From the NCBI GenBank assembly GCA_024654025.1, contig JANLIR010000002.1, positions 101,639 through 165,638 of the forward strand: a DNA stretch of 64,000 bases, written 5' to 3'. Under the pieces are notes generated by a model. It had not been told where the DNA came from. It made no database searches and saw nothing but the letters and a program-made list of their open reading frames with translations. This DNA is from Candidatus Wolfebacteria bacterium (GTDB taxonomy: Bacteria; Patescibacteriota; Minisyncoccia; UBA6257; UBA9933). Shown here piece by piece: positions 2,072-59,516 of this stretch. How positions within the stretch are numbered: the stretch's first letter is position 1; every line of letters begins with the position of its first letter. The translations under genes and the position numbers were made by a program.

Positions 2072-3820
2072 TTATTTCTCTTTTTCCATTTCCAACAACT
2101 CCTCCGGATTGGTTGTGATTAATTTGTCCTCGAAATACGACGGGATAATTCTTATCGCTACGTGCTTTAATCCGACGAAAAATATTCCTTCTCCTACTCC
2201 GGCCTGCAAAACCAAATTTTTTTCCGCTTCGGTTAAATAAAATGTCTTTGCCACCGCCTCAACGGCCGAAGGCGACTGCTTCAACAAAAGTTGGAGTGAA
2301 GAATTAGTGATAACGGGCTTACCTAAAGGCGAATCCAAAAATTCCTCCACGTTTTGAGTGATTGTCGTAAGACCCAAATAATATTTTCTACACCTTTTAG
2401 CCAAAGAATACAGAAACGCCGCGCTATCGGGATATTTCATCATCCACCACGCTTCGTCAATTATTAAAATTCTTTTTTTCATTTCCGAACGAATTACATT
2501 CCAAATAAAATTCAAAACGATATACATCGCTATAGGCCTTAATTCTTCTTCTAAATCACGAATAGAAAATATCACTAATCTATTTTTCACATCAACGCTT
2601 GTCGGTTTATTAATAAATCCGGCGTAAGTTCCTTTAGTAAAAGTATATAGCCGCATTGACAAATTTTTTCCGCCATCCATATTTTCTAAAACAGTCTGCA
2701 AATCTTCCAAAAGCGGGGCTTTGAATTTTGAAAAATCTTTAACTTCGGCGGTAATGCCTCTGGAAGCGTATGTTTCCGTTATGGCCTTATCCAAAACCGC
2801 TTCCTCTTCCGGCGTAACGTTTTTAAGCATTAATTTCAAAAGTCCGGTTAAGTTAAGGATATGCGACTTGAAAACATCGCCAGGGTCCTCATCTTTGGGA
2901 ATAATCGGAATGTCCAGTGGATTTATCGAATCGTTTGAATTTAAAGAAATTTTTAAAACCGTTCCGCCAACCGCGTCGGACAATCTTCGGTATTCGTCTT
3001 CCGGATCAATAACCAAAACATCTATACCGAGCATAAGCGACCTGATAATTTCCAATTTTGTCGAATACGATTTTCCCGCCCCGGCTTTGGCAAAAACAAC
3101 CTGGTTGGCATTTTCCAAAGAAAATCTGTCAAAAATAACCAGCGAATTATTATGCTGATTAACGCCATAAAGAACTCCCTTATCAGAAGTTAAATCCAAA
3201 GAAACAAACGGAAAGAAAGAAGACGCAGGCCCTGTATTTAACGGCGTATTAGCGAGTAATTTATCCTGGCAAAGTGGCAAGGTTGAAATAAGGCCGTCAA
3301 CATGCTGAAAAGTCGCCGGCTTTACGTAAACGAGCTGGCTTTCAAAAAGAGAGTTTATTTTATCCTCAATTCTCGCTAATTCTTCGATAGTCGGCGCATA
3401 TATTGTTATATAGACACCAACGCTTAAAAGTTTTTCTTGCGCCTGCTGTAAGTTGTTTCTTAGATTTTCAATGTCTTGATACGCTGTTTCAAGCATCGGA
3501 TCTCTTATTAATCCTTTTTCTTCCCGCTCCGAAAGCTCCGCCTCCAAAGAAGTGACTTTTTTTCTTAATTTCCGAAGAGCCGAAGCCGTATCAATTGGGT
3601 GAACAAATATAGAGATGTCGAGCAAATTGGGCATATTAATAATGGAATTAAACCACCCCGCTGACAAATACCTCGGATAATTCAGAATAAAAAGGGTTTT
3701 CACGAAAAAATCGCCGATTCTTAAATAGCCGGGATTAACCTCTAGCGCAGCCGGCGCGATAACATTCTTAACGTCTTTTTCCGAAGGCTCGTAAGGTTTT
3801 ATTATTTTTATTTGTTCCAT
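2072..3820 (-). CDS. virB4: VirB4/TrbE/CagE-family type IV secretion ATPase
   Basis: Walker A AGAGKSYSTK and Walker B RILIIDEAWWMM; length and domain order typical of VirB4. Confidence 0.8.
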   Translation of the reverse strand: MEQIKIIKPYEPSEKDVKNVIAPAALEVNPGYLRIGDFFVKTLFILNYPRYLSAGWFNSIINMPNLLDISIFVHPIDTASALRKLRKKVTSLEAELSEREEKGLIRDPMLETAYQDIENLRNNLQQAQEKLLSVGVYITIYAPTIEELARIEDKINSLFESQLVYVKPATFQHVDGLISTLPLCQDKLLANTPLNTGPASSFFPFVSLDLTSDKGVLYGVNQHNNSLVIFDRFSLENANQVVFAKAGAGKSYSTKLEIIRSLMLGIDVLVIDPEDEYRRLSDAVGGTVLKISLNSNDSINPLDIPIIPKDEDPGDVFKSHILNLTGLLKLMLKNVTPEEEAVLDKAITETYASRGITAEVKDFSKFKAPLLEDLQTVLENMDGGKNLSMRLYTFTKGTYAGFINKPTSVDVKNRLVIFSIRDLEEELRPIAMYIVLNFIWNVIRSEMKKRILIIDEAWWMMKYPDSAAFLYSLAKRCRKYYLGLTTITQNVEEFLDSPLGKPVITNSSLQLLLKQSPSAVEAVAKTFYLTEAEKNLVLQAGVGEGIFFVGLKHVAIRIIPSYFEDKLITTNPEELLEMEKEK

Positions 3821-3829
3821 TTTATTTTC

Positions 3830-4498
3830 TTATGACGCGCTTGCGATTTTTAAATCTTTTTTCTCAATTGCTTGAGGGTTATATAAATTATAAAAAAGCT
3901 CAATTAGTTCTTCGTCATTTAACGGCACCGCTCTCAATCCTATTTGTTCAAGCCCAACTACAACCTGATCGGTTCTTTGATTCAATTGCATAATACGCTC
4001 TCCTAAATCCTCTTCTTGTTTTGCTTCGTCTTTTTCTTTTCTGCCGAAAAACGCGAAAAACGGAAGCTTTGAAAGAAAACTTTTTTGGGCTGTTTGGGAA
4101 ATATCCATTCCGTCATAGGGCACAACCGCAAAAAAGGTTTTTGCCATTATATCGTTTTGTTTCACAAACGAGCGGATAAATTCTATATATTCGGCGATTT
4201 GATTTTTCAAAAGCTCGTTCTGCTCTTCAGCCTGCCTTTGAGAAAGCATTTCTAAATAACCTTCTATATTCAACCGGCGGGAATGGATTATTATTTGCAC
4301 TGAAAAATCCAATGTGTTTAAAAAATTCTGGTAACCGCCGATTATGATATTTTGCTCTTCCTCTGACTTTAATTCAAAATTCGTTCCGCTAACCATCACA
4401 ACTCGCCGAAGACCTCCGCTTCTTAAAATAATTACTCCGTCCTTTATGTCTTCAATATCTACGAATTGTTGAGTTGAAATTGTTTCTTTTGCTGGCAT
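3830..4498 (-). CDS. Hypothetical cytoplasmic protein, T4SS-operon member
   Basis: ORF tightly packed between the PrgI-like gene and VirB4; no recognisable motif. Confidence 0.35.
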   Translation of the reverse strand: MPAKETISTQQFVDIEDIKDGVIILRSGGLRRVVMVSGTNFELKSEEEQNIIIGGYQNFLNTLDFSVQIIIHSRRLNIEGYLEMLSQRQAEEQNELLKNQIAEYIEFIRSFVKQNDIMAKTFFAVVPYDGMDISQTAQKSFLSKLPFFAFFGRKEKDEAKQEEDLGERIMQLNQRTDQVVVGLEQIGLRAVPLNDEELIELFYNLYNPQAIEKKDLKIASAS

Positions 4499-4543: not shown

Positions 4544-5101
4544 TTATCTGAAATCAACTCTTCTGGCCGCTTCCTTTTCACCGCTTGTTTTTCTAAAAAA
4601 ACTTACGCGTTCTGCCATTCTGGGTTTTGGAATAAATTTCTCGCGCTTAGGTAGAGGATTTTTTGTCGTCATTAAATCATCCCATAATTTTTTAATCGCT
4701 GGGGCAGGGTTGAATAAGCTTCCCAAACTCTCTCGCTGGGCTAAAACTTTTTCAGTTGGAATTATTTTAACTAGCGCTTTTTGCAGCTGGGGAAGTTTCG
4801 GAATTTTTATTATTACCTCTTCCGATTCCCGCTTCCATAAATAAAATCTCGGCTTCCATAGAAATCCGACGCTCGCTAAAAAAATCTTAGAAATCGACTG
4901 TCCGTTATACTTCGCAAATCCGAAAACCAAAGCTATTGCCACCAAAAGAGCGGTCGCTAAAATCCAGAAAAAAAAATTAAAGACAAAATAGCTAAGCAGG
5001 CTTATTCCTCCGGCAAAAACCAGATAAAGAACTTGTTTTAAAGTCAAAGGCCCGGCTATTTTATCCTCTATTTCTATAAATTGGGGAACCTGAAATTGCA
5101 T
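4544..5101 (-). CDS. PrgI/VirB3-like membrane protein
   Basis: Two N-terminal TM helices (LYLVFAGGISLLSYFVFNFFFWILATALLVAIALVF) and a charged C-terminal tail, lying 5' of the VirB4 gene as in Gram-positive-type T4SS. Confidence 0.5.
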   Translation of the reverse strand: MQFQVPQFIEIEDKIAGPLTLKQVLYLVFAGGISLLSYFVFNFFFWILATALLVAIALVFGFAKYNGQSISKIFLASVGFLWKPRFYLWKRESEEVIIKIPKLPQLQKALVKIIPTEKVLAQRESLGSLFNPAPAIKKLWDDLMTTKNPLPKREKFIPKPRMAERVSFFRKTSGEKEAARRVDFR

Positions 5102-5114
5102 AATAATGATACAA

Positions 5115-5144
5115 ATATACTAATTTTACTAATGATACGAATGG
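5115..5144. repeat. MITE-like repeat, left arm (atatactaattttactaatgatacgaatgg); further copies at 28414-28443 and 15317-15341
   Basis: Near-identical 25-30-mers at three loci. Confidence 0.7.
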
Positions 5145-5557
5145 GATACGAATTCATTCCTGTTAATCGTATCAATCTTAATAATTCTTTTGGGTTTTAA
5201 ATATTTGTCCCTAAAGTTTATAAGCACCCCCAACCTTAAATTTAAGGCTTGTAAATAACGTTGAGTTTGATAATAATCTTCTTTAGTTAAAATGCGCTTA
5301 GCCTTAAATTCAAGAATAAGTTTATCATCTATTAAAAAATCAACCACATTACCACTGTCACCTAAACGTAATTCTTTTTTGTAAGGAATTTTAATTTCTT
5401 TTAATTTACGCTCAAATTCATCAGAATATTGTTTTTCCTTTGCAAACCTCCCCAAATCGTTATGAACAGCAAAACAAATACCAGTAATAACATAAGAAAT
5501 TTCGGGATAAATTATCTTATTTTTATTATTCGTATTATTAGTATCATTCGTTCTCAT
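5129..5557 (-). CDS. GxxExxY family protein (PD-(D/E)xK-like); both termini encoded by repeat arms
   Basis: Pattern E.sY..tG.cF.VHN.LG..F.E..Y...L..EL...GI......E...V.DFLID.KLILEFKAK matches the GxxExxY family; flanked by the MITE arms. Confidence 0.55.
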   Translation of the reverse strand: MRTNDTNNTNNKNKIIYPEISYVITGICFAVHNDLGRFAKEKQYSDEFERKLKEIKIPYKKELRLGDSGNVVDFLIDDKLILEFKAKRILTKEDYYQTQRYLQALNLRLGVLINFRDKYLKPKRIIKIDTINRNEFVSHSYH

Positions 5558-5573
5558 TCGTATATTGGTATCA
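5528..5573. repeat. MITE-like repeat, right arm (attcgtattattagtatcattcg...cgtatattggtatca); further copy at 28460-28488
   Basis: Imperfect inverted match to the left arm; shared with the 28.4 kb locus. Confidence 0.65.
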
Positions 5574-5578
5574 ATTTA

Positions 5579-6955
5579 TTATTCAACGATTTTTCTAAGG
5601 TCAATAACGTCTTCTTCAACCGGAATGTCTTTTAATTGTAATTCATCCGGCGATTTAGCTGCCGTTTTTTGTTCGGGCTTTTGTTCGATTTTAAACATTT
5701 GTTTTCGGGCATCTTCAAAAGCTTTTTTCTCCGCCGCTGCTTTTATGCTTAATCCAAACTCCGGTCTTGGAGCTGAAAAACCAATTTTTGCGCCGTTATC
5801 GATCTTTATCGAACTTTGCTCAACTAAAGGAACTTGTATTCTTTTCTCTTCTGTAATTCTTTCCGTTTGGAAAGTTTCCATTTTTTTGTCATTCGTTTCA
5901 TTAGCATGCATTCGTCCTTCGGTCTGCTCAGGACGACCTCCTCGAGTCTGAGTCTCGGAGTCGAAGACCTGAGCTTGCCGAATGGGTCGTATATTGGTAT
6001 CGCGTTGTTCTTTTTTCTCTTCCATTTTTACCACTTTAGGCTCGAAACCAATATTAATTTCTTTGCTTTGAGAAAAAACCTGAGACTGAAAAGGCTTTTC
6101 TTTTCCAAAAGGAGACATCGGCGTATTTAAATCGCTATAATGAACTACTCTGACATTTGGTTTCTCCATTTGTATCTTGTTTTCCTTTTTCTTTTCCACG
6201 TCAGCGCCAAAACTTATTTTTGCCGCCAAATCTGATGATTCTTTTCTTGCCGCCGGCTCTTGTCCGGAAGAAAAAGTAAACACTTCAGCCAAAGATTTTT
6301 TATCCGCCGCAAGCGGTGTTAATTCTGTTTCCTTATGTAAAATCATCGGCGCTTCTTCTTCGCCAAGTGATTTTTCCAAAGTTATTCCGCTGACCTTCGG
6401 CTCGATTTTTCCGAAAACCGTCGGTTCTTCTTTTTTAATTTCCTGTCTAAATTCCGGTTTTTTCAACACTACCGCTTCTGGAAATATTTCTTTCGACTTT
6501 ATCTCAATTGTTTCGCTTGAAATTCCAAGAGCTGATTTTGTTTTTAAATCAACAACGTCTTCTTTTGTTGCGGGCTTTAATTCAATTTTAGGCGCTCCCC
6601 AAGACAATGCCGATTTTGAAACAACCAACGGACTGTAAATTTTTTTAATTTCGTCTTTTAACGATATGAAAATCTTTTTATCAATCTCTTGATAAATCGA
6701 ATCAGCTAATTGTTTATTGACCTCCAGATTTTCGGCGATTTCTTTGCTCATATCTTCAATCGCCACAAATCCGGACAAAACCAAAGCGGTTAACTGCTCA
6801 ATAGTTAAAGTTTTTTCATCATCAAAATAATGAGATTGGCAAATATGCCGGACAGTTCCCATTACGCTCTCTGAATTAAGAGCGTTTTTTAAAATACTCG
6901 GCAAGTCATAAACGCGTTTTTGAAATTGTTGTTCGGTGATTAAAAAGTAGTCCAT
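5579..6955 (-). CDS. Hypothetical protein: ~100-aa structured N-terminus, then a long Lys/Glu-rich disordered region containing an in-frame 95-bp repeat module
   Basis: Low-complexity K/E/P-rich sequence; segment IRPIRQAQVFDSETQTRGGRPEQTEGRM is encoded by the repeat at 5909-6002. Confidence 0.4.
   Translation of the reverse strand: MDYFLITEQQFQKRVYDLPSILKNALNSESVMGTVRHICQSHYFDDEKTLTIEQLTALVLSGFVAIEDMSKEIAENLEVNKQLADSIYQEIDKKIFISLKDEIKKIYSPLVVSKSALSWGAPKIELKPATKEDVVDLKTKSALGISSETIEIKSKEIFPEAVVLKKPEFRQEIKKEEPTVFGKIEPKVSGITLEKSLGEEEAPMILHKETELTPLAADKKSLAEVFTFSSGQEPAARKESSDLAAKISFGADVEKKKENKIQMEKPNVRVVHYSDLNTPMSPFGKEKPFQSQVFSQSKEINIGFEPKVVKMEEKKEQRDTNIRPIRQAQVFDSETQTRGGRPEQTEGRMHANETNDKKMETFQTERITEEKRIQVPLVEQSSIKIDNGAKIGFSAPRPEFGLSIKAAAEKKAFEDARKQMFKIEQKPEQKTAAKSPDELQLKDIPVEEDVIDLRKIVE
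5890..6002. repeat. 95-bp GC-rich repeat module (cattcgtccttcggtctgctcaggacgacc...gaatgggtcgtatattggtatcg) inside a CDS; inverted copy at 25498-25613; truncated copy at 28488-28553
   Basis: ~94/95 identity between the 5909-6002 copy and the reverse complement of 25498-25591. Confidence 0.8.
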
Positions 6956-11019: not shown

Positions 11020-11874
11020 TTAAAACAACGTGGATAAGTGCTTTATTTGCTCAAGAGACAAATTTTGCGGCCTATCCTGTGGGTTTATGCCAAACATCTG
11101 AAATTTTCCAATGATTTCTTCTTTTTTTAATTGAATTTTCTTATTCGTATAATTAGTATGCATTAGTATATTAGCATCGCGAAGATTATTTATTATCGTC
11201 TTTCTCGGCTGTTTAAATAAAACTTTTACAAATTTGTAGTATTTTTCCGCTTCTTCTGTTGTAAATTGTTGGCCTGCCCCGTAGGAAGCTTGCTTTCCTT
11301 CGGGGTTGTAAGTTGTTAGTCGGATTATCGCGCTGTCAACTTTTGGTATCGGCCTAAAATCATTTTTTGAAATATATTCTATTATTTTTGGTTCAGTCCA
11401 AAATTGCGTGATTGCCGCCAACAAATTCATTTGAGGTGGTTTTGCGCAAATTCTTTGCGCCACTTCTTTTTGAATTGTTAAAACTATCAGTAACGGTTTA
11501 TTTTCCAGTTCTGATAAAATCCTTAGCAAACTACCGGTTATATAATAAGGAATATTGCCTGTCAGCTTATAGTTATTAGTTGTTAGTTTAGAGTTATAAG
11601 TTAAATCCGTAAGGATTTTCAGCGCATCGCCCTCAATAATTTCAATATTATTGTTGTCTTTGAATTTTTCCCTCAAGCCATTCGCTAGTATTTTATCTTT
11701 CTCAATAGCAATTATTCTATTTTCTAATTTATTATTTCTAATTTCTGTTGTTAGCTCTCCGTGTCCCGGCCCAATTTCAACAACAACATCTCCTTTTTTT
11801 AATTCCAAGGCCTCAACAATTTTCTGTATTTTGTTTTTATTAACTAAAAAATGCTGACCTAATTTTCTTGACAT
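11020..11874 (-). CDS. rsmA: 16S rRNA (adenine1518/1519-N6)-dimethyltransferase
   Basis: N-terminal LGQHFL motif and SAM motif VVEIGPGHGELT. Confidence 0.85.
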   Translation of the reverse strand: MSRKLGQHFLVNKNKIQKIVEALELKKGDVVVEIGPGHGELTTEIRNNKLENRIIAIEKDKILANGLREKFKDNNNIEIIEGDALKILTDLTYNSKLTTNNYKLTGNIPYYITGSLLRILSELENKPLLIVLTIQKEVAQRICAKPPQMNLLAAITQFWTEPKIIEYISKNDFRPIPKVDSAIIRLTTYNPEGKQASYGAGQQFTTEEAEKYYKFVKVLFKQPRKTIINNLRDANILMHTNYTNKKIQLKKEEIIGKFQMFGINPQDRPQNLSLEQIKHLSTLF

Positions 11875-13483: not shown

Positions 13484-15304
13484 CTAGTTAATTTCTATGT
13501 ATCTTTCTTCGTCGTCCAGCGGCTGGCCGCCGACAAATTCCACAAACTGCGGCGGGATTTCATAAAGAAACCTCGAGGGTAAATTATAAAAATTCAAATA
13601 AAGATCATTTCTCGCCCGAGTCATCGCCACATACATCAATCGCCTTTCTTCTTCTATCTCGTCGCCGCTTGAATAAGACATTTGATGAGGCAACAACCCT
13701 TCGTTACAGCCAATCACAAAAACTTCGTCAAACTCCAAACCTTTTGCCAAATGAACAGTCATTAAATTAACGTGGACATCCGCGGTTTGCGCCGAATCTT
13801 TATTATCCAAAGGCCCCAAAAGCGAAACTCTTTCTAAAAAATCTCCCAAACTTTTAAAATTGGCGGCGAAATTCATTAACTCTTCTATGTTCTCCCGCCG
13901 TTCTTTGAAATTCAGATAACTTCTTTCTAAATATCCGAAGTAATCGGATGTTTTGATAATATAGCCAATCACTTCAAGCGGAGAAACATTTTCTGATTTT
14001 TGAGGAAGGTTTTTTTTAAACTCCAAATATATCTTTTTGTTAAAGTTCTTTTCCAAGCGCTCCAAGCTGACGCTATCCTTGGGATTTAATCCGTATCTTA
14101 ATCCCGCGACAATGTCTTTAATTTCTTTTCTTTCATAAAACCTTAATCCGCCGAAAATCCGGTATTTAATTTCGTTTTCAATAAGCGCTTGCTCAATCGC
14201 CCGCGACTGGCTGTTTGTCCGGTAAAGTATTCCTACACTTTTAGGTTTATTATTGGAAAAATTCAATTTGGAATTTATAAGCGTCGCGACATAACTTGCT
14301 TCAAAATCGGAATTCTCATGTTCGATTATTTTTATTAACTCCCCGTCGCTGTTTTCAGTCCATAACGTTTTTGGCCGTTGATATTTATTATTCGCCACCA
14401 CCGCAGAAGCGGCTTTGATGATATTTCCGGTCGAGCGATAATTTTGTTCGAGTAAAACCACTTTCGCACCCGGCCAATCGCGGTCAAAATTCAAAAAATT
14501 CCTGAAATCGGAAAAACGGAATTTATATATTGACTGCTGATCATCGCCCACCACGCTGATATTATTATGGCTTTGCGCCAACAGCCGGACAAAATGATAC
14601 TGCGCCGTATTAATGTCTTGATATTCATCCACCAAAACATGTTTTATTTCTTTTTGGTATTTTTTAAAAACTTCTTCCTGCTCTCTAAATAACCGCACAA
14701 CTTTTTCTATCAAATCGTCAAAATCAAACGCGTTATTATTTTTAAGAGCCAATTCGTATTCATTAAAAAGAGCTTTTATAGTCATATCGTAGCTGTCTGC
14801 CGATTCTTCGGTTAAATCAACTAATTCGCTCTTTATCGCCGAAAATTTCCTCTGCATTTGAGGCGCGCTGTATTTTTTACTGTCAAGATTAAAATTTTTT
14901 ATAATTCCTTTAATAACCCGAAGCGAATCGTCACTGTCGTAAATGGTAAACCCGATTGTCCGGCCAAAAAATTTCCCGTCTTTTCTCAAAATTTTAGCTC
15001 CCAAAGAATGAAAGGTCCCGATGAACAAGTTTGTAAATTTATAAGTTTGTAAGTTTTCAGATTTAACCTTATCAACTTGTGAACTTATCAACTTATAAAT
15101 TCTATCCCGCATCTCGTCGGCCGCTTTATTGGTAAAAGTAATAGCAATTATACTCTGCGGTTCTGCTCCGTTTTTAAGCAAATTTAATAACCGGCTTGTT
15201 AGCGTTTTGGTTTTGCCTGATCCTGCTCCGGCAACTATCAAAAGCGGCCCATCTCCATATTCCACCGCCTCTTTTTGAAAAGGATTAAGATCTTTAAAGT
15301 TCAT
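13484..15304 (-). CDS. pcrA: UvrD/PcrA/Rep-family ATP-dependent DNA helicase
   Basis: Walker A AGAGSGKT; motif II VLVDEYQD. Confidence 0.8.
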   Translation of the reverse strand: MNFKDLNPFQKEAVEYGDGPLLIVAGAGSGKTKTLTSRLLNLLKNGAEPQSIIAITFTNKAADEMRDRIYKLISSQVDKVKSENLQTYKFTNLFIGTFHSLGAKILRKDGKFFGRTIGFTIYDSDDSLRVIKGIIKNFNLDSKKYSAPQMQRKFSAIKSELVDLTEESADSYDMTIKALFNEYELALKNNNAFDFDDLIEKVVRLFREQEEVFKKYQKEIKHVLVDEYQDINTAQYHFVRLLAQSHNNISVVGDDQQSIYKFRFSDFRNFLNFDRDWPGAKVVLLEQNYRSTGNIIKAASAVVANNKYQRPKTLWTENSDGELIKIIEHENSDFEASYVATLINSKLNFSNNKPKSVGILYRTNSQSRAIEQALIENEIKYRIFGGLRFYERKEIKDIVAGLRYGLNPKDSVSLERLEKNFNKKIYLEFKKNLPQKSENVSPLEVIGYIIKTSDYFGYLERSYLNFKERRENIEELMNFAANFKSLGDFLERVSLLGPLDNKDSAQTADVHVNLMTVHLAKGLEFDEVFVIGCNEGLLPHQMSYSSGDEIEEERRLMYVAMTRARNDLYLNFYNLPSRFLYEIPPQFVEFVGGQPLDDEERYIEIN

Positions 15305-15352
15305 AATTTAGCTATAAATACTAATTTTACTAATATACGAATTTAACACAAA

Positions 15353-15380: not shown

Positions 15381-15566
15381 AAAAAATTTCTTTTTTAATT
15401 ATTTTATAAATTTAAAGTTAGAAAGAAATCTATTAAAATCACCGCAATCGCCGAAAAACCTTTTGATTTATTCATATATTTATTCTTACTATTTAAATAT
15501 TAATATGATACGCCTTTGCAACTTTGTCTATGCTTTTTTCCTAAGTGTTATGCTAAATCATAACAC

Positions 15567-16022
15567 TTAGGAACGCACATAAACCGTTCCGTATTTGGTG
15601 CGAACTCGCCTTCCCTCTCGCCACTGTTTATACCGATCTTTATTTGAACCCGGCCCTTTGCTATACTTTTTCTTCTTTCGTTCTATTTTACTCCTCTCTT
15701 GATAGCTCCGGTAATGATTTTCCGTTATTGCTTTTTTAATACTGCTGATAGTTTGGAGTGAAAGAAAAAGATCATTGCTAATCTGCCTGTAACTTTTGCC
15801 GGAAATGAAACCTTTTAAAGCGGCGACTCGCATTACAAAATTATGACGCTCATAAGAAGTAGTAAGCAAATCCAGTATCTCTTCGGCTTTTGATATCTTT
15901 TTCCAGCACGCATCTTCCCATTCTTTACGTGACGAATAATTCTCGATTGGCGGTATAACCGCCAATATTTTATCGCTGATACTTTTATCAGCAAAATTAA
16001 CTTCTTTTTCTTTCTTGCCCAT
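15567..16022 (-). CDS. TrpR/YerC-like helix-turn-helix DNA-binding protein
   Basis: Segment ERHNFVMRVAALKGFISGKSYRQISNDLFLSLQTISSIKKAI resembles the TrpR/YerC HTH; basic C-terminal tail. Confidence 0.45.
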   Translation of the reverse strand: MGKKEKEVNFADKSISDKILAVIPPIENYSSRKEWEDACWKKISKAEEILDLLTTSYERHNFVMRVAALKGFISGKSYRQISNDLFLSLQTISSIKKAITENHYRSYQERSKIERKKKKYSKGPGSNKDRYKQWREGRRVRTKYGTVYVRS

Positions 16023-16208
16023 ATTTTACCTATAAATAATAATCATAATAACCGGCTTTATAAACAATAAACTTATTATACCACCGTCGGGCTGTTATGC
16101 TAAATCATAACACTAAAATTTTAATCATTAAATATAAAATAAATTCGGCCTAAGCTAACTGTTATGATATAGCATAACAGTTAATAAACTCGCCGTTATC
16201 TCAACTTT

Positions 16209-23212: not shown

Positions 23213-23240
23213 TTGACATTTATTTCAAAATACGTATACT
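23213..23240 (+). promoter_or_regulatory. Sigma70-type promoter TTGACA-N16-TATACT driving the candidate sRNA
   Basis: ttgaca at 23213-23218, tatact at 23235-23240. Confidence 0.45.
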
Positions 23241-23246
23241 TATAGA

Positions 23247-23398
23247 AACTCTCTGGTATTGCGGGTAATGGGAGTATTTTTAGCTCGGAAGGATTGGTTC
23301 CGGCTGGTCCTCTCCTCGAAAATACTCTTAAACTTGCGCGGCGCGCAATTAAATCTCTCTCGCAGGGAGATACCCGCAATACCAGGGAGTTTTGTTAT
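23247..23398 (+). ncRNA. Candidate structured small RNA (~150 nt) of unknown class
   Basis: 15-bp perfect closing stem (23254-23268 ctggtattgcgggta pairs with 23371-23385 tacccgcaataccag), inner stems including the palindrome ttgcgcggcgcgcaa, then a U-tract; no coding potential; its own promoter. Confidence 0.3.
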
Positions 23399-25072
23399 TT
23401 ATTCCCATTCTATCGGTCCGGTAACCCCTTTTATTTCATCAAAAGTGGTTATGCCGCTTATCACTTTTAATATTCCGTCCTGCTGCATTGTTGTCATTCC
23501 TTTATCCACGGCAAATTTATTAATCGCTGTTTCTCCTGCTTGCTTAGATATTAATTCTTCAACTTCTGAACCGACTTCCAAAAGCTCGTAAATCGCCACT
23601 CTTCCTTTATAACCCATACCCAAACAATTATCACAGCCTTTTGGCTCAAAAATTTTAATATCTTTATACTCGCCTTTATCCACTCTTTTGGGCAGTTTAT
23701 CTAAAAACTTTTTAATATTATTTTCCAAGTCTTTTTCTCCACCGGCTGGCGAATTAGCCTCAACTTTACAATTCTGACAAAGCCTCCGCACCAAACGCTG
23801 GGCTATTATTAATTTCAAAGCCGGCCCGATACTTACATTTTTTACTCCCAAATCCAAAAGCCGGGGAATGGCTCCGGCTGACCGATTAGCATGAATGGTT
23901 GAAAAAACTAGGTGGCCGGTTAGCGACGCTTGAATGCCGATTTCCGCGGTTTCTTTATCTCTAATTTCTCCGACTAATATAACGTCCGGATCTTGCCGCA
24001 TTAACGACTTTAATCCGCTGGCAAAAGTGTATCCCGCTTCTTCGTCGACTTGCGTTTGTTCAATCCCGTCAAGATGATACTCAATCGGATCTTCAATTGT
24101 TATTATTTTTATTTCCGGAGATTTTTTTGTTTTTAAAAAGGTATATAGAGTAGTTGTTTTCCCTGATCCGGTCGGACCGGTATTTAATATAAGTCCGTCC
24201 GGCCTTTCCAAATTCTTTTGGATTATTTCCAGATCATCGTCTCTAAGGCCCAAATCTTTAAGAGAGAGGTTTATCGAATCCGGATCTAGTAGTCGCATCA
24301 CAATAACTTCTCCGAATTCCGACGGCGCCAAAGCGACTCTCACTTCAACGTCTTTGCCGGCTAATTGAATGGTAAACCGGCCGTCCTGCGGTTTATTAGA
24401 AATATTTAACTTTAGCCCGGAAAGAAGTTTTACTCTGGAAACCAAAAATTGGTAAAAATTAGATTTTAAAACAAAAACATCTCGGAGCAATCCATCAATT
24501 CTAAGCCGTAGTTTAATATTTTTCCCTGTTGGTTCAAAATGAACATCAGACGCTCTATTTAACAAAGCGCCGGCTAAAATAATTTCGAAAACCTGTGCGG
24601 CGTTAAAAGATTCAAATTCCTGTTTTTCTAAAAATTCTTTAAACCCTCCTAAAGTTGAAAGTTCTTTTTTTAACTTTGAAACATCTTCTACTTCAACCTT
24701 GCCGGTTATTTTTTCAGTTTCAACCGGCGCGTATTTATAAAAATTAAAAGCGTGCTCCAAACCGCTTAATGAAACAACAAACACCGAATATTCGTAGCCC
24801 TTCTTAGAAAAATCGTCAAGAACTTTTTTTACAGCCGGACTGGCCGGATCAACACAGACCACGGCAAGTTTGTTTCTCTTTTTTTCAATAACCGCCATCT
24901 TAGCTTCTCTAGATATTTTTTCATCCACTAAAGCCAAGGCCTCAACAACTACCGGCGTTTTAGATAAATCGACGTATTTTAAATTTAAATTTACAGCCTT
25001 TCTTTGAGCGTCTCTTTCTTCAGCCTCTCGCTTCATTTTCGCCAATTTATCGGTTAAGTTGCCAAAAATCAT
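23399..25072 (-). CDS. pilB: Type II/IV secretion / type IV pilus assembly ATPase (GspE/PilB family)
   Basis: N-terminal T2SE_N-like domain; Walker A GPTGSGKTTTL; Cys tetrad CQNC...CDNC. Confidence 0.8.
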   Translation of the reverse strand: MIFGNLTDKLAKMKREAEERDAQRKAVNLNLKYVDLSKTPVVVEALALVDEKISREAKMAVIEKKRNKLAVVCVDPASPAVKKVLDDFSKKGYEYSVFVVSLSGLEHAFNFYKYAPVETEKITGKVEVEDVSKLKKELSTLGGFKEFLEKQEFESFNAAQVFEIILAGALLNRASDVHFEPTGKNIKLRLRIDGLLRDVFVLKSNFYQFLVSRVKLLSGLKLNISNKPQDGRFTIQLAGKDVEVRVALAPSEFGEVIVMRLLDPDSINLSLKDLGLRDDDLEIIQKNLERPDGLILNTGPTGSGKTTTLYTFLKTKKSPEIKIITIEDPIEYHLDGIEQTQVDEEAGYTFASGLKSLMRQDPDVILVGEIRDKETAEIGIQASLTGHLVFSTIHANRSAGAIPRLLDLGVKNVSIGPALKLIIAQRLVRRLCQNCKVEANSPAGGEKDLENNIKKFLDKLPKRVDKGEYKDIKIFEPKGCDNCLGMGYKGRVAIYELLEVGSEVEELISKQAGETAINKFAVDKGMTTMQQDGILKVISGITTFDEIKGVTGPIEWE

Positions 25073-25497: not shown

Positions 25498-25613
25498 CGA
25501 TGCCAATATACGACCCATTCGGCAAGCTCAGGTCTTCGACTCCGAGACTCAGACTCGAGGAGGTCGTCCTGAGCAGACCGAAGGACGAATGACATGCGAA
25601 TGATACGAATAAT
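25498..25613. repeat. Inverted copy of the 95-bp module plus arm fragment, in the KH-gene upstream region
   Basis: see 5890-6002. Confidence 0.8.
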
Positions 25614-26242: not shown

Positions 26243-28390
26243 TTAATTCTCCAGTTTTAACGACAGAAGCTTTGAAGTCCCGTCTTCGTTCATTGTCACG
26301 CCATACAAAACATCGCTTACCTCCATCACCGCTCTGTTATGGGTTACTATAATAAACTGCACTTTATTGGCAAATTCTTTTACCAAATTAGCGAATCGTT
26401 TTGAGTTGTGTTCGTCCAAAGGCGCGTCTATTTCGTCTAAAACCAAAAACGGCGGCGGGCTCACCGATATTAAAGCAAACAAGGCCGCAATAGAAACCAA
26501 ACTTTTTTCTCCGCCTGACAAAACGTCCAAACTTTTTATTTTTTTCTTCGGCACGTTTAGTTCGATTTCAATTCCTGCTGTTTCTTCTTCGCCTTGTTCA
26601 ACCTCCTCGCCTTCCTCGTTTATTAAAGCCGGTTTTTTTTCTATTTTTTCCAATTTCAATTTCGCCGAACCTCCGTCAAACATCAAACGGAAAAATTTAT
26701 TAAATTCTTCATTTATGGATTTTAACGAGCCATTAAATCTCGAACTTATCTCGCCGGTTAATTCTTTAATTAAATTATTTAAGTCAATAGTCGCTTTTGA
26801 AAGATCTTCTGATTGCGTAATTAAAAAATTATAGTGGTCCTCGACTTCTCTGGCTTCTTTCACAAGCGCTTCGTCCACTTCTCCGATGCTTGCCAATTCT
26901 CCGCGTAATCTAAACATTTGCCTTTCTATATCAACTTCTTGGCGAATTTCTTCTTGAAGTTTTTCCAATTCTTCAAATTCCTTCAAGTGCCGTCCTATTC
27001 TTTGCCAATCATCTTTTAAGTCCGCCAATCTCAAATCGGTTTTTTTTTTTTCAAAAATATAGCGGTTTTTTCTCCCTTCCAATTCCCTCGTTTCTTCTTT
27101 TTTTTCTTCAACCAATCCATAGGCGTTTCTAAATTTCAAATTAAAGTTTTCTCGTGCCTTTTCTAAATTTTCTTCCTCCCCTCGTATGGATTTTAACTCC
27201 TCTTCTATTTCGTCTACTTGTTTTAACAACGCTTCTTTTTGTTTTTTTATATCTTCAGGAACCGCGCTTGGTCTTTTTTCAGATTTTTCAAAAAAATCGT
27301 TGATTCGGGAAATTATTTTTTTTATTTCTGATAAAACGGCTTCTAATTCTTTCACGGCCAGACTTTCATCCAGCTTCGTTTTTATTTCGGAAATTAATGA
27401 TGTTAATTCTTCTTTTTTCACCACCTCGCCGCTGTCTTCCTTAGAAAGGCTTGAAAATTCTATCTGCGCCTCAAGCCGGCCGATATCTTTTTGCAGTTGA
27501 AATCTTTTTGTTAAAAGTTCTCGCTCTTTTCTTTTAAGTTCCTGAAGCGGCTCGTTATTGAAAGAATAATCTTCAACTTTTTTTAAATCATCTATTAACA
27601 CCGCAAGTTCCTCTTTTTTTTGTTTAATTTGATTGTCTAACGCAAAAATTTCCTGGTTGGTTTTAATTTTGTTTTCCTGCAAGTCCTTGGACTTGGCGAA
27701 GAAAAAAATATTTTCTAATTTTTTTAATTCTTTTTCTTTTTCTTCCCGTTTTTCCCATTTTGAAACCTGTCTTTTTAAAGTTCTCAGCCGCGGCAGAACC
27801 TCGTCAACCATCGCTTTGACTTTATCCAAATTCTGAGAGGTATTTTTTAATTTTCTGGAGGCTTCTGATTTTTTAAGCTGGTACTCTTTAAGACCTAAAA
27901 TTTCTTCTATCATGGCTCGGCGCTCCTCTGACGTAACCCGCACAAACAAATCGCTTGACCCCTGATTTATAATCGTTAAGCCTCTTGTCCCCAACCGGAC
28001 TCTCGCAAAAAAATCAATAATATCTTTTACTCTAACTTCCGATTTATTAAGCGTATATTTAGAATTGCCGTCGCGGTCTATTTGCCGAACTATGATAACC
28101 TCGTCAAATTCTACCGGGAAAAACCCGGAATTATTGTCAAAATAAACGCTTACACTAGCCATTCCCATTCTAGGTTTTTGGTTAGTGCCGGCAAAAATAA
28201 GGTCTTCCGCTTTGCCGCCCCTTAAATTTTTAGCCTCCCTTTCTCCTAAAAGCCAGCGTATCGCGTCAATAATATTTGACTTGCCAGAACCATTCGGCCC
28301 AACAATAGCCGTAATACCTTTTGGAAATTCTAATACCGTTTTTTGGGCAAAAGATTTAAATCCGTTTAGTTCTAAAGATTTTAAATGCAT
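26243..28390 (-). CDS. smc: SMC-family ATPase (unusually short, 715 aa)
   Basis: Walker A GPNGSGKSN; signature LSGGEKSL; Walker B LVLDEIDAPLD; central coiled coil. Confidence 0.65.
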   Translation of the reverse strand: MHLKSLELNGFKSFAQKTVLEFPKGITAIVGPNGSGKSNIIDAIRWLLGEREAKNLRGGKAEDLIFAGTNQKPRMGMASVSVYFDNNSGFFPVEFDEVIIVRQIDRDGNSKYTLNKSEVRVKDIIDFFARVRLGTRGLTIINQGSSDLFVRVTSEERRAMIEEILGLKEYQLKKSEASRKLKNTSQNLDKVKAMVDEVLPRLRTLKRQVSKWEKREEKEKELKKLENIFFFAKSKDLQENKIKTNQEIFALDNQIKQKKEELAVLIDDLKKVEDYSFNNEPLQELKRKERELLTKRFQLQKDIGRLEAQIEFSSLSKEDSGEVVKKEELTSLISEIKTKLDESLAVKELEAVLSEIKKIISRINDFFEKSEKRPSAVPEDIKKQKEALLKQVDEIEEELKSIRGEEENLEKARENFNLKFRNAYGLVEEKKEETRELEGRKNRYIFEKKKTDLRLADLKDDWQRIGRHLKEFEELEKLQEEIRQEVDIERQMFRLRGELASIGEVDEALVKEAREVEDHYNFLITQSEDLSKATIDLNNLIKELTGEISSRFNGSLKSINEEFNKFFRLMFDGGSAKLKLEKIEKKPALINEEGEEVEQGEEETAGIEIELNVPKKKIKSLDVLSGGEKSLVSIAALFALISVSPPPFLVLDEIDAPLDEHNSKRFANLVKEFANKVQFIIVTHNRAVMEVSDVLYGVTMNEDGTSKLLSLKLEN

Positions 28391-28413
28391 ATCACTTCGC
28401 TAATATGATACCA

Positions 28414-28553
28414 ATATACTAATTTTACTAATGATACGAATGGATACTAATTTTATTATATTCGTATTTATTAGTATCATTCGAATGCATTCGTCCTTCG
28501 ACTTACTCAGGACGACCCTGAGTCGGTCGAATGGGTCGTAGATTTGTATCACG
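28414..28553. repeat. Compact complete element (left arm + right arm + truncated module) filling the smc-rnc spacer
   Basis: seen in sequence. Confidence 0.7.
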
Positions 28554-28554
28554 T

Positions 28555-29241
28555 TTATTGGCTAATTTCTTCCAGCGCTTTTTTCGCGGCTTCCACTTCC
28601 GCTTCTTGTTTGGAAAAACCCTTGCCCACGGCGATTAATTTTTTACCGAAATAAACTCCGGATTCAAAAACTTTCGCGTGATCGGGCCCTTCTTCCGATA
28701 AAATTTCATACGCCGGGGTAAGTTTCATTTTTTCCTGAGTTATTTCCTGTAAATAACTTTTAGGATCTTTGTAAAGTTCCTCGCTCATTACTTTGGAAAG
28801 TCTGGACAAAACAGTTTCACTGACGAAATTTTTGGTTATTTCATATCCGGAGTCTAAATATAAAGCCCCCAAAAGAGCTTCCAAAGCATTTGCTAAAATA
28901 ACCTCCCTTGCTCGTCCGGTATCTTTAGTCTCGCCTTTGGAAAGCAAAACTACTTCTTCCAAACCGATTATTTTAGCAACCTCCGCGAGCATTTGATAAT
29001 TAACCAAAGCTGCCCGAATACTTGTAAGTTCGCCTTCGGGCATATCTGAATATTTTAAAAATAAAATTTCGGTTACCGTTAATTCTAAAACCGCGTCTCC
29101 TAAAAATTCCAACCGCTCATTATGCGAAACGCCCCAATCGGGATTTTCATTTATGTAAGAACGGTGAGTCAAAGCCTCTTTTAAAAGGTTTTGATTTTTA
29201 AAGTTATACTTTATTTTTTTTTCAAACGAAGAAAGGTCCAC
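28555..29241 (-). CDS. rnc: Ribonuclease III
   Basis: ERLEFLGDAVLEL signature; C-terminal dsRBD. Confidence 0.85.
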   Translation of the reverse strand: MDLSSFEKKIKYNFKNQNLLKEALTHRSYINENPDWGVSHNERLEFLGDAVLELTVTEILFLKYSDMPEGELTSIRAALVNYQMLAEVAKIIGLEEVVLLSKGETKDTGRAREVILANALEALLGALYLDSGYEITKNFVSETVLSRLSKVMSEELYKDPKSYLQEITQEKMKLTPAYEILSEEGPDHAKVFESGVYFGKKLIAVGKGFSKQEAEVEAAKKALEEISQ

Positions 29242-36777: not shown

Positions 36778-36870
36778 ATATTTATCTTTGACTTTCACTT
36801 CCTTAATTCCTAATATTAGCTTGTCGTTCATTAACTAATTCCTAACTACTAACTCCTAGTTGCTATTCTC

Positions 36871-58124: not shown

Positions 58125-58157
58125 TCGCTAACTCCTAAATTCTAACTACTAACTATT

Positions 58158-59192: not shown

Positions 59193-59225
59193 AATAGTAG
59201 TCAGGAGTTAGTAGCGAGGAGTTTA

Positions 59226-59516
59226 TTATACTACGTTGAATTTAATACTGTTGGATTTTTCAAGTATCTCCACGGTAGCCTTTACCGAGGGATTATGTGT
59301 GTGCATTAATTTAAATCGTCCATCATAACGTTGGATTAGTGGCGTTAGAAACTCATCCCCCCAAGAAGGAGAGAAAGTAATTACCCCGTCAAAATCAGCT
59401 ATTATTTCCTCCTGCTCGGGGATATCTTTTAAAGATGATTGAAAGGCGGCAAAAGCTTCTCTCCCTGCTTGTCTAGAAATTAGAGCTGTTCCAAATTTTT
59501 TAAGTTCGATATTCAT
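59226..59516 (-). CDS. STAS-like (DUF4325-type) small protein
   Basis: Weak similarity to STAS/DUF4325 pattern (IADFDGVITFSPSWGDEFL); 96 aa. Confidence 0.35.
   Translation of the reverse strand: MNIELKKFGTALISRQAGREAFAAFQSSLKDIPEQEEIIADFDGVITFSPSWGDEFLTPLIQRYDGRFKLMHTHNPSVKATVEILEKSNSIKFNVV

What the first reader, a model, noticed from the sequence alone, without database searches (positions are those of the whole stretch)
5110..5580. GxxExxY gene is carried between the two arms of a MITE-like repeat whose solo version fills the smc-rnc spacer
The left arm (5115-5144) and right arm (5528-5573) recur directly abutted at 28414-28488 with no gene between them, and a solo left arm sits at 15317-15341. 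At 5.1-5.6 kb the arms bracket the 142-aa GxxExxY ORF and supply its start (MRTNDTNNTNNKNK) and stop regions. This looks like a small non-autonomous element that exists in cargo-bearing and empty forms. GxxExxY proteins are PD-(D/E)xK-like and often multicopy; here one is physically coupled to a repeat and inserted into the middle of the T4SS operon.
Basis: seen in the sequence. Interest (0 to 1): 0.6.

Follow-up and report, generated by a model that had tools for sequence, protein, structure and literature searches.

The report
Nuclease gene inside a palindromic repeat
A small nuclease gene of unknown function sits inside a 465-bp palindromic repeat wedged between two operon genes; the same gene-plus-repeat unit, and about eight times as many gene-less copies, occur across this bacterial phylum, which points to an undescribed kind of selfish DNA element.

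Summary
Window 5108-5572 (minus strand) is a 465-bp unit. It holds a GxxExxY/PDDEXK_3 gene between two inverted arms. Each arm is an array of ATACNAAT octamers ending in the 13-mer GATRCNAATATAC.

A gene-less copy lies at 28407-28550. Solo arms lie at 15311-15341, inside ksgA, inside the 458-aa ORF, and in the rpsP/KH spacer.

The "MITE carrying a cargo gene" reading is only partly right:
- In 80 other Patescibacteria loci, 70 of 85 GxxExxY genes have both termini, and no other gene was found between such termini.
- An arm-based metagenome sample gave 82 gene-less hairpins against 10 gene-sized units.
- Units sit about 3 nt after the upstream stop and 5-6 nt before the next start. No target duplication was found.
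- At this same junction, close relatives carry an intact unit, a decayed pseudogene, or a 23S-rRNA-IVS-protein gene with different arms.
- GxxExxY genes in Bacteroidota, Spirochaetota, Alphaproteobacteria and Gemmatimonadota have their own flanking arrays, inverted where both sides could be paired.

Best reading: an IVS-like, REP/RAYT-like palindromic element whose own gene is a Cas4/RecB-like nuclease. The mechanism is inferred, not shown.

The parts
5108..5572 (-). Full gene-bearing unit (465 bp), from 5' terminus (5560-5572) to 3' terminus (5108-5120). It lies 6 nt after the stop of the 458-aa ORF (5579-5581) and 6 nt before the prgI start (5099-5101).
   Evidence: the long-range closing stem appears in both the MFE and centroid folds
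5529..5572 (-). 5' arm: GATACCAATATAC then ACGAAT/ACTAAT units. It contains the ORF's start codon (5555-5557) and encodes MRTNDTNNTNN.
5129..5557 (-). GxxExxY / PDDEXK_3 ORF, 142 aa. Catalytic-type residues D73, E83, K85, Q97 and Y101 are invariant in 30 homologues.
5108..5152 (-). 3' arm (on the + strand: GATACAAATATACTAATTTTACTAATGATACGAATGGGATACGAAT). It contains the stop codon (5129-5131) and encodes the C-terminal tail NEFVSHSYH.
28407..28550 (-). Gene-less copy filling the rnc-smc spacer. The 3'-type arm (28407-28450) is 38/39 identical to that of the gene-bearing unit; the 5'-type arm has ATGCAT. Terminus at 28538-28550.
   Evidence: fold z = -5.56
28493..28537 (-). G+C-rich hairpin nested in the arm between ..CTAC and GAATG.
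15311..15341 (-). Solo 3'-type arm, ending 6 nt before the start (15304) of a UvrD-type helicase gene.
11140..11178 (-). Solo 5'-type arm inside the ksgA/rsmA ORF, read in frame as DANILMHTNYTNK. Alignment to solved KsgA structures stops exactly here.
5891..6001 (-). Solo 5'-type arm plus a 75-nt nested G+C-rich hairpin, inserted in frame in the 458-aa ORF. It is absent from orthologues that are 81% and 76% identical.
25499..25610 (+). Solo 5'-type arm plus the same nested hairpin (98% identical over 97 nt to 5909-6005), in the rpsP / KH-domain gene spacer, opposite in orientation to the flanking genes.

Best explanation
SHOWN.
- The feature is one copy of a phylum-wide family of small palindromic units.
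- A full unit (436-519 bp) is a GxxExxY gene enclosed by two inverted arms. The gene encodes a minimal Cas4/RecB-like PD-(D/E)XK nuclease with an intact D...ExK...QxxxY set.
- Each arm is an array of 4-5 ATACNAAT octamers at 8-10-nt spacing, ending in GATRCNAATATAC. The arms provide the gene's start codon and disordered N-tail, and its C-tail and stop.
- Gene-less hairpins (mostly 70-105 bp) and solo arms are several times more numerous than full units.
- Full units sit in operon junctions, co-oriented with the operon, about 3 nt after the upstream stop and 5-6 nt before the next start.
- Between close relatives they are gained, decayed and replaced.

INFERRED.
(1) The nuclease is the element's own enzyme. 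It recognises the octamer arrays as primary-sequence sites and is responsible for spreading or maintaining both full and gene-less copies. This is the same logic as a RAYT gene flanked by the REP sequences it acts on, but with an unrelated enzyme. Whether it works by cut-and-paste or by homing of the gene into gene-less hairpins is open.
(2) In the transcript the arms pair, as in a 23S-rRNA intervening sequence. This brings the upstream stop and the downstream start to the base of one stem, a likely RNase III substrate.
(3) In this nearly Shine-Dalgarno-free genome that geometry would let the insertion sit inside an operon at little cost.
For: Family and architecture:
- 70 of 85 GxxExxY genes in 80 loci have both termini.
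- Terminus pairs 260-4000 nt apart with nothing between them always hold exactly one GxxExxY gene.
- Arm consensus.

Abundance of gene-less forms:
- 26 in the gene-centred loci.
- 82 hairpins against 10 gene-sized units in an arm-based metagenome sample. Sizes are bimodal, about 60-107 and 450-528 bp with few intermediates.

Geometry:
- Upstream stop 0-8 nt away in most of 63/70 units.
- Next start 0-12 nt away in most of 67/70 units.

Motif rather than stem constraint:
- The central N/K positions do not covary between arms.
- An arm is no closer to its own partner than to partners elsewhere (0.735 vs 0.776).

Gene and arm co-divergence:
- A 52%-identical paralogue in L089 has TACTGATNCGAAT termini.
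- Bacteroides CAGAGGAC arms, with gene-bearing, gene-less and short forms in 24.8 kb.
- Bernardetia CACAGAGA and Sphingomonas CGCGAAG (fabD|GxxExxY|fabG).
- Treponema 18-nt inverted repeat.

Turnover at the same junction:
- Intact unit in the window and L089.
- Pseudogene in L088.
- PF05635 gene with other arms in L085.

Other support:
- Lineage-specific in-frame insertion in the 458-aa ORF.
- Three different junctions of the T4SS-like operon are occupied in different genomes.
- Arms pair across 400 nt in the MFE and centroid folds. Gene-less copies fold with median z of -6.
- IVS precedent: a 428-nt element with a 28-bp terminal stem and an S23p ORF, excised by RNase III (PMC4990558).
- Only 3 of 46 window genes have a Shine-Dalgarno-like 4-mer.
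Against: - No biochemical or transcript data exist. Nuclease action on the arms is pure inference.
- There is no target-site duplication.
- There are no near-identical copies. Paralogues within one genome are 52-71% identical. Arms within a genome are only slightly more alike than between genomes (75.7% vs 72.1%). Movement is therefore rare or ancient.
- Four-helix-bundle (PF05635) genes have the same inverted-periodic-arm architecture without encoding a nuclease. The architecture therefore does not need a nuclease in cis.
- Lack of arm-to-arm covariation also weakens the RNA-stem part.
- Gene-less copies show only about a 2:1 orientation bias.
- Loci L001-L080 were chosen through the gene, so the 70/85 figure comes from one GxxExxY clade (52-69% identity to the query).
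Confidence: 0.5

Rival explanations
1. First reader's model. A non-autonomous MITE, moved by some unlinked transposase, happened to capture a GxxExxY gene as passenger cargo. The gene-less form is the basic element.
For: Gene-less forms outnumber gene-bearing ones about 8:1. The arms are terminal inverted repeats. Solo and gene-less copies lie in many contexts.
Against: - No cargo other than GxxExxY was found between these termini in about 1.8 Mb.
- Nearly every GxxExxY gene of this clade has the arms.
- Arms change when the protein lineage changes, within one genome and across phyla.
- There is no target duplication.
- No transposase gene was noticed next to the units that were inspected; this was not searched systematically.
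Confidence: 0.08
2. Homing variant. Gene-less hairpins are the target. The nuclease cuts their centre, and repair from a gene-bearing copy, with the arms as homology, copies the gene in. The gene then interrupts its own recognition site, as in homing endonuclease genes.
For: - The gene always lies at the centre of the palindrome.
- The size distribution is bimodal with few intermediates.
- The arm of the gene-bearing unit and that of the gene-less copy in the window are 38/39 identical, against about 72-76% typical.
- Junctions that hold a gene-bearing unit in one genome hold a gene-less one in another (X|prgI: window vs L043 and L068).
Against: - Paralogues in one genome are old (52-71% identity), so there is no sign of recent copying.
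- It does not explain how gene-less hairpins themselves spread.
- Four-helix-bundle units have no nuclease.
Confidence: 0.17
3. Host regulatory element, not mobile. The arms would be a conserved intercistronic signal (RNase III site, outward promoter TATATT about 11 nt before the next ATG, or a stem that couples termination to re-initiation). GxxExxY would be a host gene embedded in it.
For: - The arm sequence is conserved across many Patescibacteria lineages at about 72%.
- Placement is strict: about 3 nt after the stop and 5-6 nt before the start.
- The genome is nearly Shine-Dalgarno-free, and many genes have TATAAT 7-12 nt before ATG.
- A solo arm is the only sequence between a hairpin followed by a T-run and the helicase start at 15304.
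Against: - There is presence/absence, decay and replacement between relatives with 86-94% identical PrgI.
- There are in-frame insertions in ORFs.
- Downstream genes are unrelated housekeeping genes.
- The sigma-70 scan calls no promoter in the arms.
- There is no Rfam match.
Confidence: 0.13
4. Scar model. Only gene-bearing units ever insert. Gene-less hairpins and solo arms are deletion remnants left in place.
For: L088 shows an intermediate: a 351-nt decayed pseudogene with degenerate arms at the orthologous junction. Gene-less copies keep the 5'-type/3'-type arm asymmetry.
Against: Remnants of random decay should span all sizes, but sizes are bimodal. Gene-less copies occur in both orientations. 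Solo arms lie inside ORFs, where a 455-bp unit could not have been tolerated.
Confidence: 0.12

Closest known systems
REP sequences with RAYT genes (REPtrons)
   Same: Short palindromic repeats are scattered through intergenic spacers. One or a few copies of a small nuclease-type gene are flanked by inverted copies of those same repeats. Repeat sequence changes with the protein lineage. Copies are old rather than recently amplified.
   Different: The enzyme is a Cas4/RecB-like PD-(D/E)XK nuclease, not an HUH/Y1 transposase. Arms are arrays of 8-nt motifs at about 9-nt period rather than single G+C-rich hairpins. The host is Patescibacteria.
23S rRNA intervening sequences (IVS) with an S23p / PF05635 ORF
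   Same: The size is about 430-520 nt. Terminal inverted repeats are predicted to close a long stem around a small ORF. Insertion is in a transcribed region in the sense orientation. Gene-bearing and gene-less versions both exist. A PF05635 gene with its own inverted arms occupies the very same junction in the nearest relative (PMC4990558).
   Different: The unit lies between protein-coding genes, not in an rRNA helix. The ORF here is GxxExxY, not the four-helix-bundle protein. RNase III cutting was not tested.
MITEs such as Correia/NEMIS elements
   Same: They are small, have terminal inverted repeats, are numerous and intergenic, and fold as hairpins in transcripts.
   Different: There is no target-site duplication. 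There is no related IS with a DDE transposase. The long form carries a 125-aa nuclease domain instead. The sequence is conserved phylum-wide.
Rickettsia palindromic elements (RPE)
   Same: Repeat copies are inserted in frame inside protein-coding genes and translated (ksgA and the 458-aa ORF). Four of the six reading frames of the arm are open (read directly from the arm sequence).
   Different: Most copies here are intercistronic, and RPEs have no associated gene-bearing form.

Membership tests
GxxExxY / PDDEXK_3 (TIGR04256, PF13366) | Profile match above the curated cut-off | tested here: met
   PF13366 68.6 bits (cut-off 22); TIGR04256 65.5 bits (cut-off 35)
GxxExxY / PDDEXK_3 (TIGR04256, PF13366) | PD-(D/E)XK catalytic core (D ... 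E-x-K) on an alpha-beta-beta-beta-alpha-beta fold | tested here: met
MITE | Terminal inverted repeats, small size, many copies | tested here: met
MITE | Target-site duplication flanking the element | tested here: not met
   Direct identity of 2-5 nt flanks is at chance level (9, 2, 1 and 0 of 70). Instead, the inverted repeat extends outward in 10-20 of 70.
MITE | Derived from an autonomous IS that encodes a transposase | tested here: not met
   The only long form carries GxxExxY, and no transposase family matched.
REP/RAYT (REPtron) | Gene flanked by inverted copies of a dispersed palindromic repeat; few genes, many repeats | tested here: met
REP/RAYT (REPtron) | Gene encodes an HUH / Y1 (IS200/IS605-type) transposase | tested here: not met
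   The only Pfam/NCBIfam matches were PDDEXK_3/GxxExxY plus a sub-threshold restriction-enzyme-type match, HSDR_N_2.
23S rRNA intervening sequence | Inserted in a 23S rRNA helix | tested here: not met
   It lies between the 458-aa ORF and prgI. No rRNA is present in the window.
23S rRNA intervening sequence | Terminal complementary sequences closing a stem around the insert | tested here: met
   Termini are 18 nt at 89% complementary, plus 24 nt at 83%. The closing stem appears in the MFE and centroid folds. This is prediction only.
23S rRNA intervening sequence | Excision by RNase III | not testable with these tools
   An rnc gene is present (28555-29241), but there are no RNA data.
Homing endonuclease gene | One specific target site that the gene interrupts | tested here: inconclusive
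   Dozens of unrelated junctions are occupied. If the target is the gene-less hairpin itself, the feature could still hold; that was not testable here.

The most novel reading that the evidence does not exclude
GxxExxY genes, and in parallel the PF05635 '23S rRNA IVS protein' genes, are the core genes of a pan-bacterial, undescribed class of selfish intercistronic units. Each unit is built from inverted arrays of a lineage-specific motif with a period of about 9 nt, which the encoded protein recognises. The classical 23S rRNA intervening sequences would then be a special case of this class. GxxExxY would be a new type of mobility or maintenance nuclease, functionally analogous to RAYT.
Probability: 0.3. 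Interest if true: 0.9.

Novelty: new variant of a known kind. Interest (0 to 1): 0.75.

Why it matters
GxxExxY (PF13366/TIGR04256) is an uncharacterised family. A clade-specific profile alone finds 3285 clusters at 50% identity. The one classification paper found lists its function as unknown.

The results tie this family to a defined DNA partner and an exact genomic placement. That gives a direct, testable hypothesis: the protein binds or cuts its own flanking arrays.

The results also link it to the PF05635 family and to rRNA intervening sequences. The origin and mobility of those sequences have been unexplained since 1990 (PMC4990558).

Because the same architecture occurs in Bacteroides, the idea can be tested in a culturable, genetically tractable organism.

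For annotation, it explains several recurring artefacts:
- odd N- and C-terminal tails such as MHTNDTNNTNK and ...KNKFV;
- start codons donated to neighbouring genes.
It may also account for the many long proteins that contain this domain; those were not examined.

Tried and rejected
- Rfam: no family matches the arms, at gathering threshold on the whole window or at E-value threshold on 28380-28570.
- Sigma-70 promoter and terminator scans at all three arm sites: no promoter called on the gene strand within the arms. The promoter idea stays a weak inference.
- Target-site duplication: none.
- Compensatory covariation between the two arms: absent at the variable positions of 70 gene-bearing units and in 93 gene-less copies. 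Only the R of GATRC agrees more than chance (45/70 vs 34, p = 0.003).
- Recent amplification: rejected.
- Vertical inheritance at the prgI|traC junction: GxxExxY proteins at that junction are not each other's closest relatives (61.3% vs 60.2% overall). The signal is too weak to decide.
- Other cargo between ATACNAAT termini: none found.
- Sequence search of the PDB: no solved relative.
- PADLOC: only a marginal Cas4b hit, E = 0.01. PHROGs: two families of unknown function.
- Viral contigs: no exact match to the 5'-arm pattern, so no sign of phage carriage.
- Literature: nothing on GxxExxY function, on these repeats, or on their sequences.
Full report
OBSERVATION.

- The left arm 5106-5144 recurs at 28405-28443 with 38/39 identity.
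- A 27-mer from it occurs exactly twice in the window, with none expected by chance.
- The right arm recurs at 28468-28494 at 85%.
- A shortened left arm lies at 15311-15341.
- The minus-strand ORF 5129-5557 (142 aa) matches PF13366 PDDEXK_3 over residues 19-121 and TIGR04256 GxxExxY over residues 20-126. Its first ~18 and last ~16 residues, with the start and stop codons, are therefore arm sequence. An AlphaFold model predicts these tails to be disordered.
- The neighbours are a PrgI-family gene, a TraC-like N-terminal piece and a VirB4-type ATPase. The unit does interrupt a T4SS-like operon.

The two arms are inverted repeats of each other. Each is a run of ATACNAAT octamers spaced 8-10 nt apart and ends in a 13-nt terminus, GATRCNAATATAC (5108-5120 and 5560-5572).

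The unit is 465 bp. It begins 6 nt after the stop codon of the upstream 458-aa ORF and ends 6 nt before the prgI start codon.

The gene-less copy spans 28407-28550.
- One arm is of the type found 3' of the gene.
- The other is of the 5' type (with ATGCAT) and is split by a nested 45-nt G+C-rich hairpin.

Further copies:
- A solo arm is read in frame inside ksgA (11140-11178). Alignment to solved KsgA structures stops exactly there.
- A solo arm with a 75-nt nested hairpin lies inside the 458-aa ORF (5891-6001).
- Its 98%-identical twin lies in the rpsP/KH spacer (25499-25610).

RELATED GENOMES.

The source is a Candidatus Wolfebacteria genome. Almost all of 120 homologues (56-75% identity) begin with M-H/N-T/A-N-D-T-N-N-T-N-K. 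Most end with ..IDT-x-x-K-N-K-F-V. These are the translated arms.

A gene-based scan of species-representative genomes returned 80 loci from many Patescibacteria lineages, 1.11 Mb in total.
- Of the 85 GxxExxY genes found in those loci plus the window, 70 have both termini within 150 nt in the right orientation. Most others have diverged versions.
- Units are 436-519 bp. Every uninterrupted terminus pair 260-4000 nt apart holds exactly one GxxExxY gene.
- Twenty-six gene-less hairpins of 69-159 bp lie in the same loci, six of them in 17 kb of L015.

An arm-based scan of metagenome contigs is not biased toward the gene. It hit its 120-contig limit and gave:
- 82 distinct gene-less hairpins, mostly 70-105 bp;
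- 10 gene-sized units (nine of 450-528 bp or of undetermined length, and one intermediate of 269 bp);
- 27 solo arms. Some of these donate a start codon and N-tail to unrelated genes.

No match was found in viral contigs.

PLACEMENT.

- In 63 of 70 units a co-directional ORF stops just before the 5' terminus, mostly 0-8 nt away (mode 3).
- In 67 of 70 a co-directional ORF starts just after the 3' terminus, mostly 0-12 nt away (mode 5-6).
- Downstream genes are varied housekeeping genes. PilC, the TraC-like gene and the C-terminal half of transketolase recur.
- There is no target-site duplication. In 10-20 of 70 units the inverted repeat simply extends outward.
- Gene-less copies are co-oriented with their operon only about 2:1.

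TURNOVER.

Three junctions of the T4SS-like operon are occupied in different genomes:
- upstream of prgI;
- prgI|traC-like;
- traC-like|virB4.

Relatives whose PrgI is 94%, 88% and 86% identical to the window's show three different states at the window's junction:
- a 123-aa PF05635 (23S rRNA IVS protein, four-helix-bundle) gene, flanked by its own A-rich inverted periodic arms, with no ATACNAAT sequence;
- a decayed GxxExxY pseudogene in a 351-nt spacer;
- an intact GxxExxY unit, 72% identical in protein.

The third relative also has a second GxxExxY gene, 52% identical, one junction downstream. It has a variant arm type (TACTGATNCGAAT terminus).

Orthologues of the 458-aa ORF (81% and 76% identical) lack the repeat at 5891-6006. 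That copy is therefore a lineage-specific in-frame insertion.

Against recent activity:
- paralogues in one genome are 52-71% identical;
- arms are only slightly more alike within than between genomes.

STRUCTURE VERSUS MOTIF.

- The 489-nt transcript folds with the two arms paired across 400 nt in both the MFE and centroid structures. The stem also takes in the upstream stop region and the bases just before the prgI AUG.
- Gene-less copies fold far better than shuffles (z = -5.6 for the window copy, median -6 for 60 others).
- Yet the variable centre of the octamer does not covary between arms.
- An arm is no more similar to its own partner than to partners elsewhere.

The constraint therefore looks like a repeated primary-sequence motif, as expected for protein-binding sites. 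Hairpin potential follows from the inverted arrangement.

THE PROTEIN.

- No solved relative is found by sequence.
- D73, E83, K85, Q97 and Y101 are invariant among 30 homologues.
- This fits an active PD-(D/E)XK nuclease with the RecB-type QxxxY motif (established knowledge of that superfamily). Activity was not tested.

OTHER PHYLA AND THE IVS LINK.

GxxExxY genes elsewhere are also flanked by short motif arrays or repeats, inverted where both sides could be compared, and with different units:
- Bacteroides finegoldii: CAGAGGAC units. The gene lies between radA and the next gene, 1 nt after the stop and 5 nt before the start. Two gene-less copies and one short copy lie in the same 24.8 kb.
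- Bernardetia: CACAGAGA units.
- Sphingomonas: CGCGAAG units, with the order fabD|GxxExxY|fabG.
- Treponema: an 18-nt inverted repeat.
- Gemmatirosa: a CGCAGAGGA hairpin just downstream of the gene.
- Prevotella and possibly Persicobacter show direct rather than inverted arrays.

Four-helix-bundle genes in the Patescibacteria loci are each flanked by inverted arrays with a period of about 9 nt. The unit differs every time. Two of them lie in T4SS-operon junctions.

The classical Coxiella IVS is a 428-nt element. It has a 28-bp terminal stem and an ORF of this same protein family, is cut out by RNase III, and has no known mobility mechanism (PMC4990558).

INTERPRETATION.

What is shown: this is a conserved gene-plus-arms unit with abundant gene-less derivatives, exact intercistronic placement, and turnover between relatives.

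What is inferred:
- The nuclease acts on its own arms, in REP/RAYT-like fashion. A homing-into-hairpin variant is possible.
- Arm pairing in the transcript makes the insertion harmless, in IVS-like fashion.
- This could be helped by the near absence of Shine-Dalgarno sequences in this genome (3 of 46 genes) and by the short leaders implied by TATAAT boxes 7-12 nt before many starts.

An outward promoter in the terminus (TATATT about 11 nt before the next ATG) is possible, but the simple scan does not call it.

The four-helix-bundle units show that the architecture can exist without a nuclease gene in cis. This is the main caution.

I found no description of these repeats or of a GxxExxY function in the searchable literature. 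That library is incomplete, so prior description elsewhere cannot be excluded.

Noticed in passing
window 5914-5988, 25512-25586, 28493-28537; also L056, L102, L169, L208: G+C-rich hairpins of 30-93 nt are nested at one exact spot in the arm, between ..AATATAC and GAAT. This occurs in 7 of about 441 arms, and 3 of the 7 are in this window. The inserts differ in sequence between genomes. It looks like a second small element that targets the first.
   Followed up: partly
window 36834-36866, 58125-58157, 59193-59228: A different periodic repeat family (CTAACTNNN units) is present. One array lies just before yebC, one fills the frr|rseP junction, and an inverted one follows the rseP stop. These may be arms of another unit family, such as the kind that flanks four-helix-bundle genes.
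   Followed up: partly
window 2072-4498; L070 10001-10390; L068 11138-11246; L033 4016-4360: VirB4 is split into a TraC-like N-terminal ORF (3830-4498) and an ATPase ORF (2072-3820), 9 nt apart. In other genomes this very junction holds a GxxExxY unit, a gene-less hairpin or a four-helix-bundle unit. This raises the question of whether such insertions caused the split.
   Followed up: no
whole window: Only 3 of 46 long ORFs have a Shine-Dalgarno-like 4-mer upstream. Many have TATAAT or TGTTATAAT 7-12 nt before the ATG, which suggests widespread leaderless or very short-leader mRNAs.
   Followed up: partly
L097 1009-1100, L123 2571-2640 (metagenome contigs): Solo 5'-type arms supply the start codon and an MSTN(E/D)TN.. 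tail to unrelated genes. In L097 the ORF that follows begins MSTNETNCIFCKIAKGEIPSYKVYEDE, which looks like a HIT-family N-terminus (my reading; no profile was run).
   Followed up: no
window 15546-15567, 16093-16114, 16160-16181: A 22-nt palindromic sequence, TGTTATGCTAAATCATAACACT, occurs three times (two copies identical) around a small ORF with a weak Trp-repressor-like match (15567-16022). These may be operator sites.
   Followed up: no
one search hit list (P0248-P0290 and others): Many representatives with a strong GxxExxY domain are 250-900 aa long. The domain lies at one end or in the middle. They may be read-through fusions with neighbouring operon genes, or gene-calling artefacts caused by the tight spacing.
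   Followed up: no
L211 (Gemmatirosa) 760-860 and L083/L084 (Bacteroides): The same arm unit (GCAGAGGAC) is used in two different phyla, Gemmatimonadota and Bacteroidota. This hints at horizontal spread of one unit family.
   Followed up: no
window 23229-23267 / 23371-23409: A 39-nt inverted repeat (77% complementary), with arms 103 nt apart, lies just downstream of the GspE/PilB-like ATPase gene. It is unexplained.
   Followed up: no
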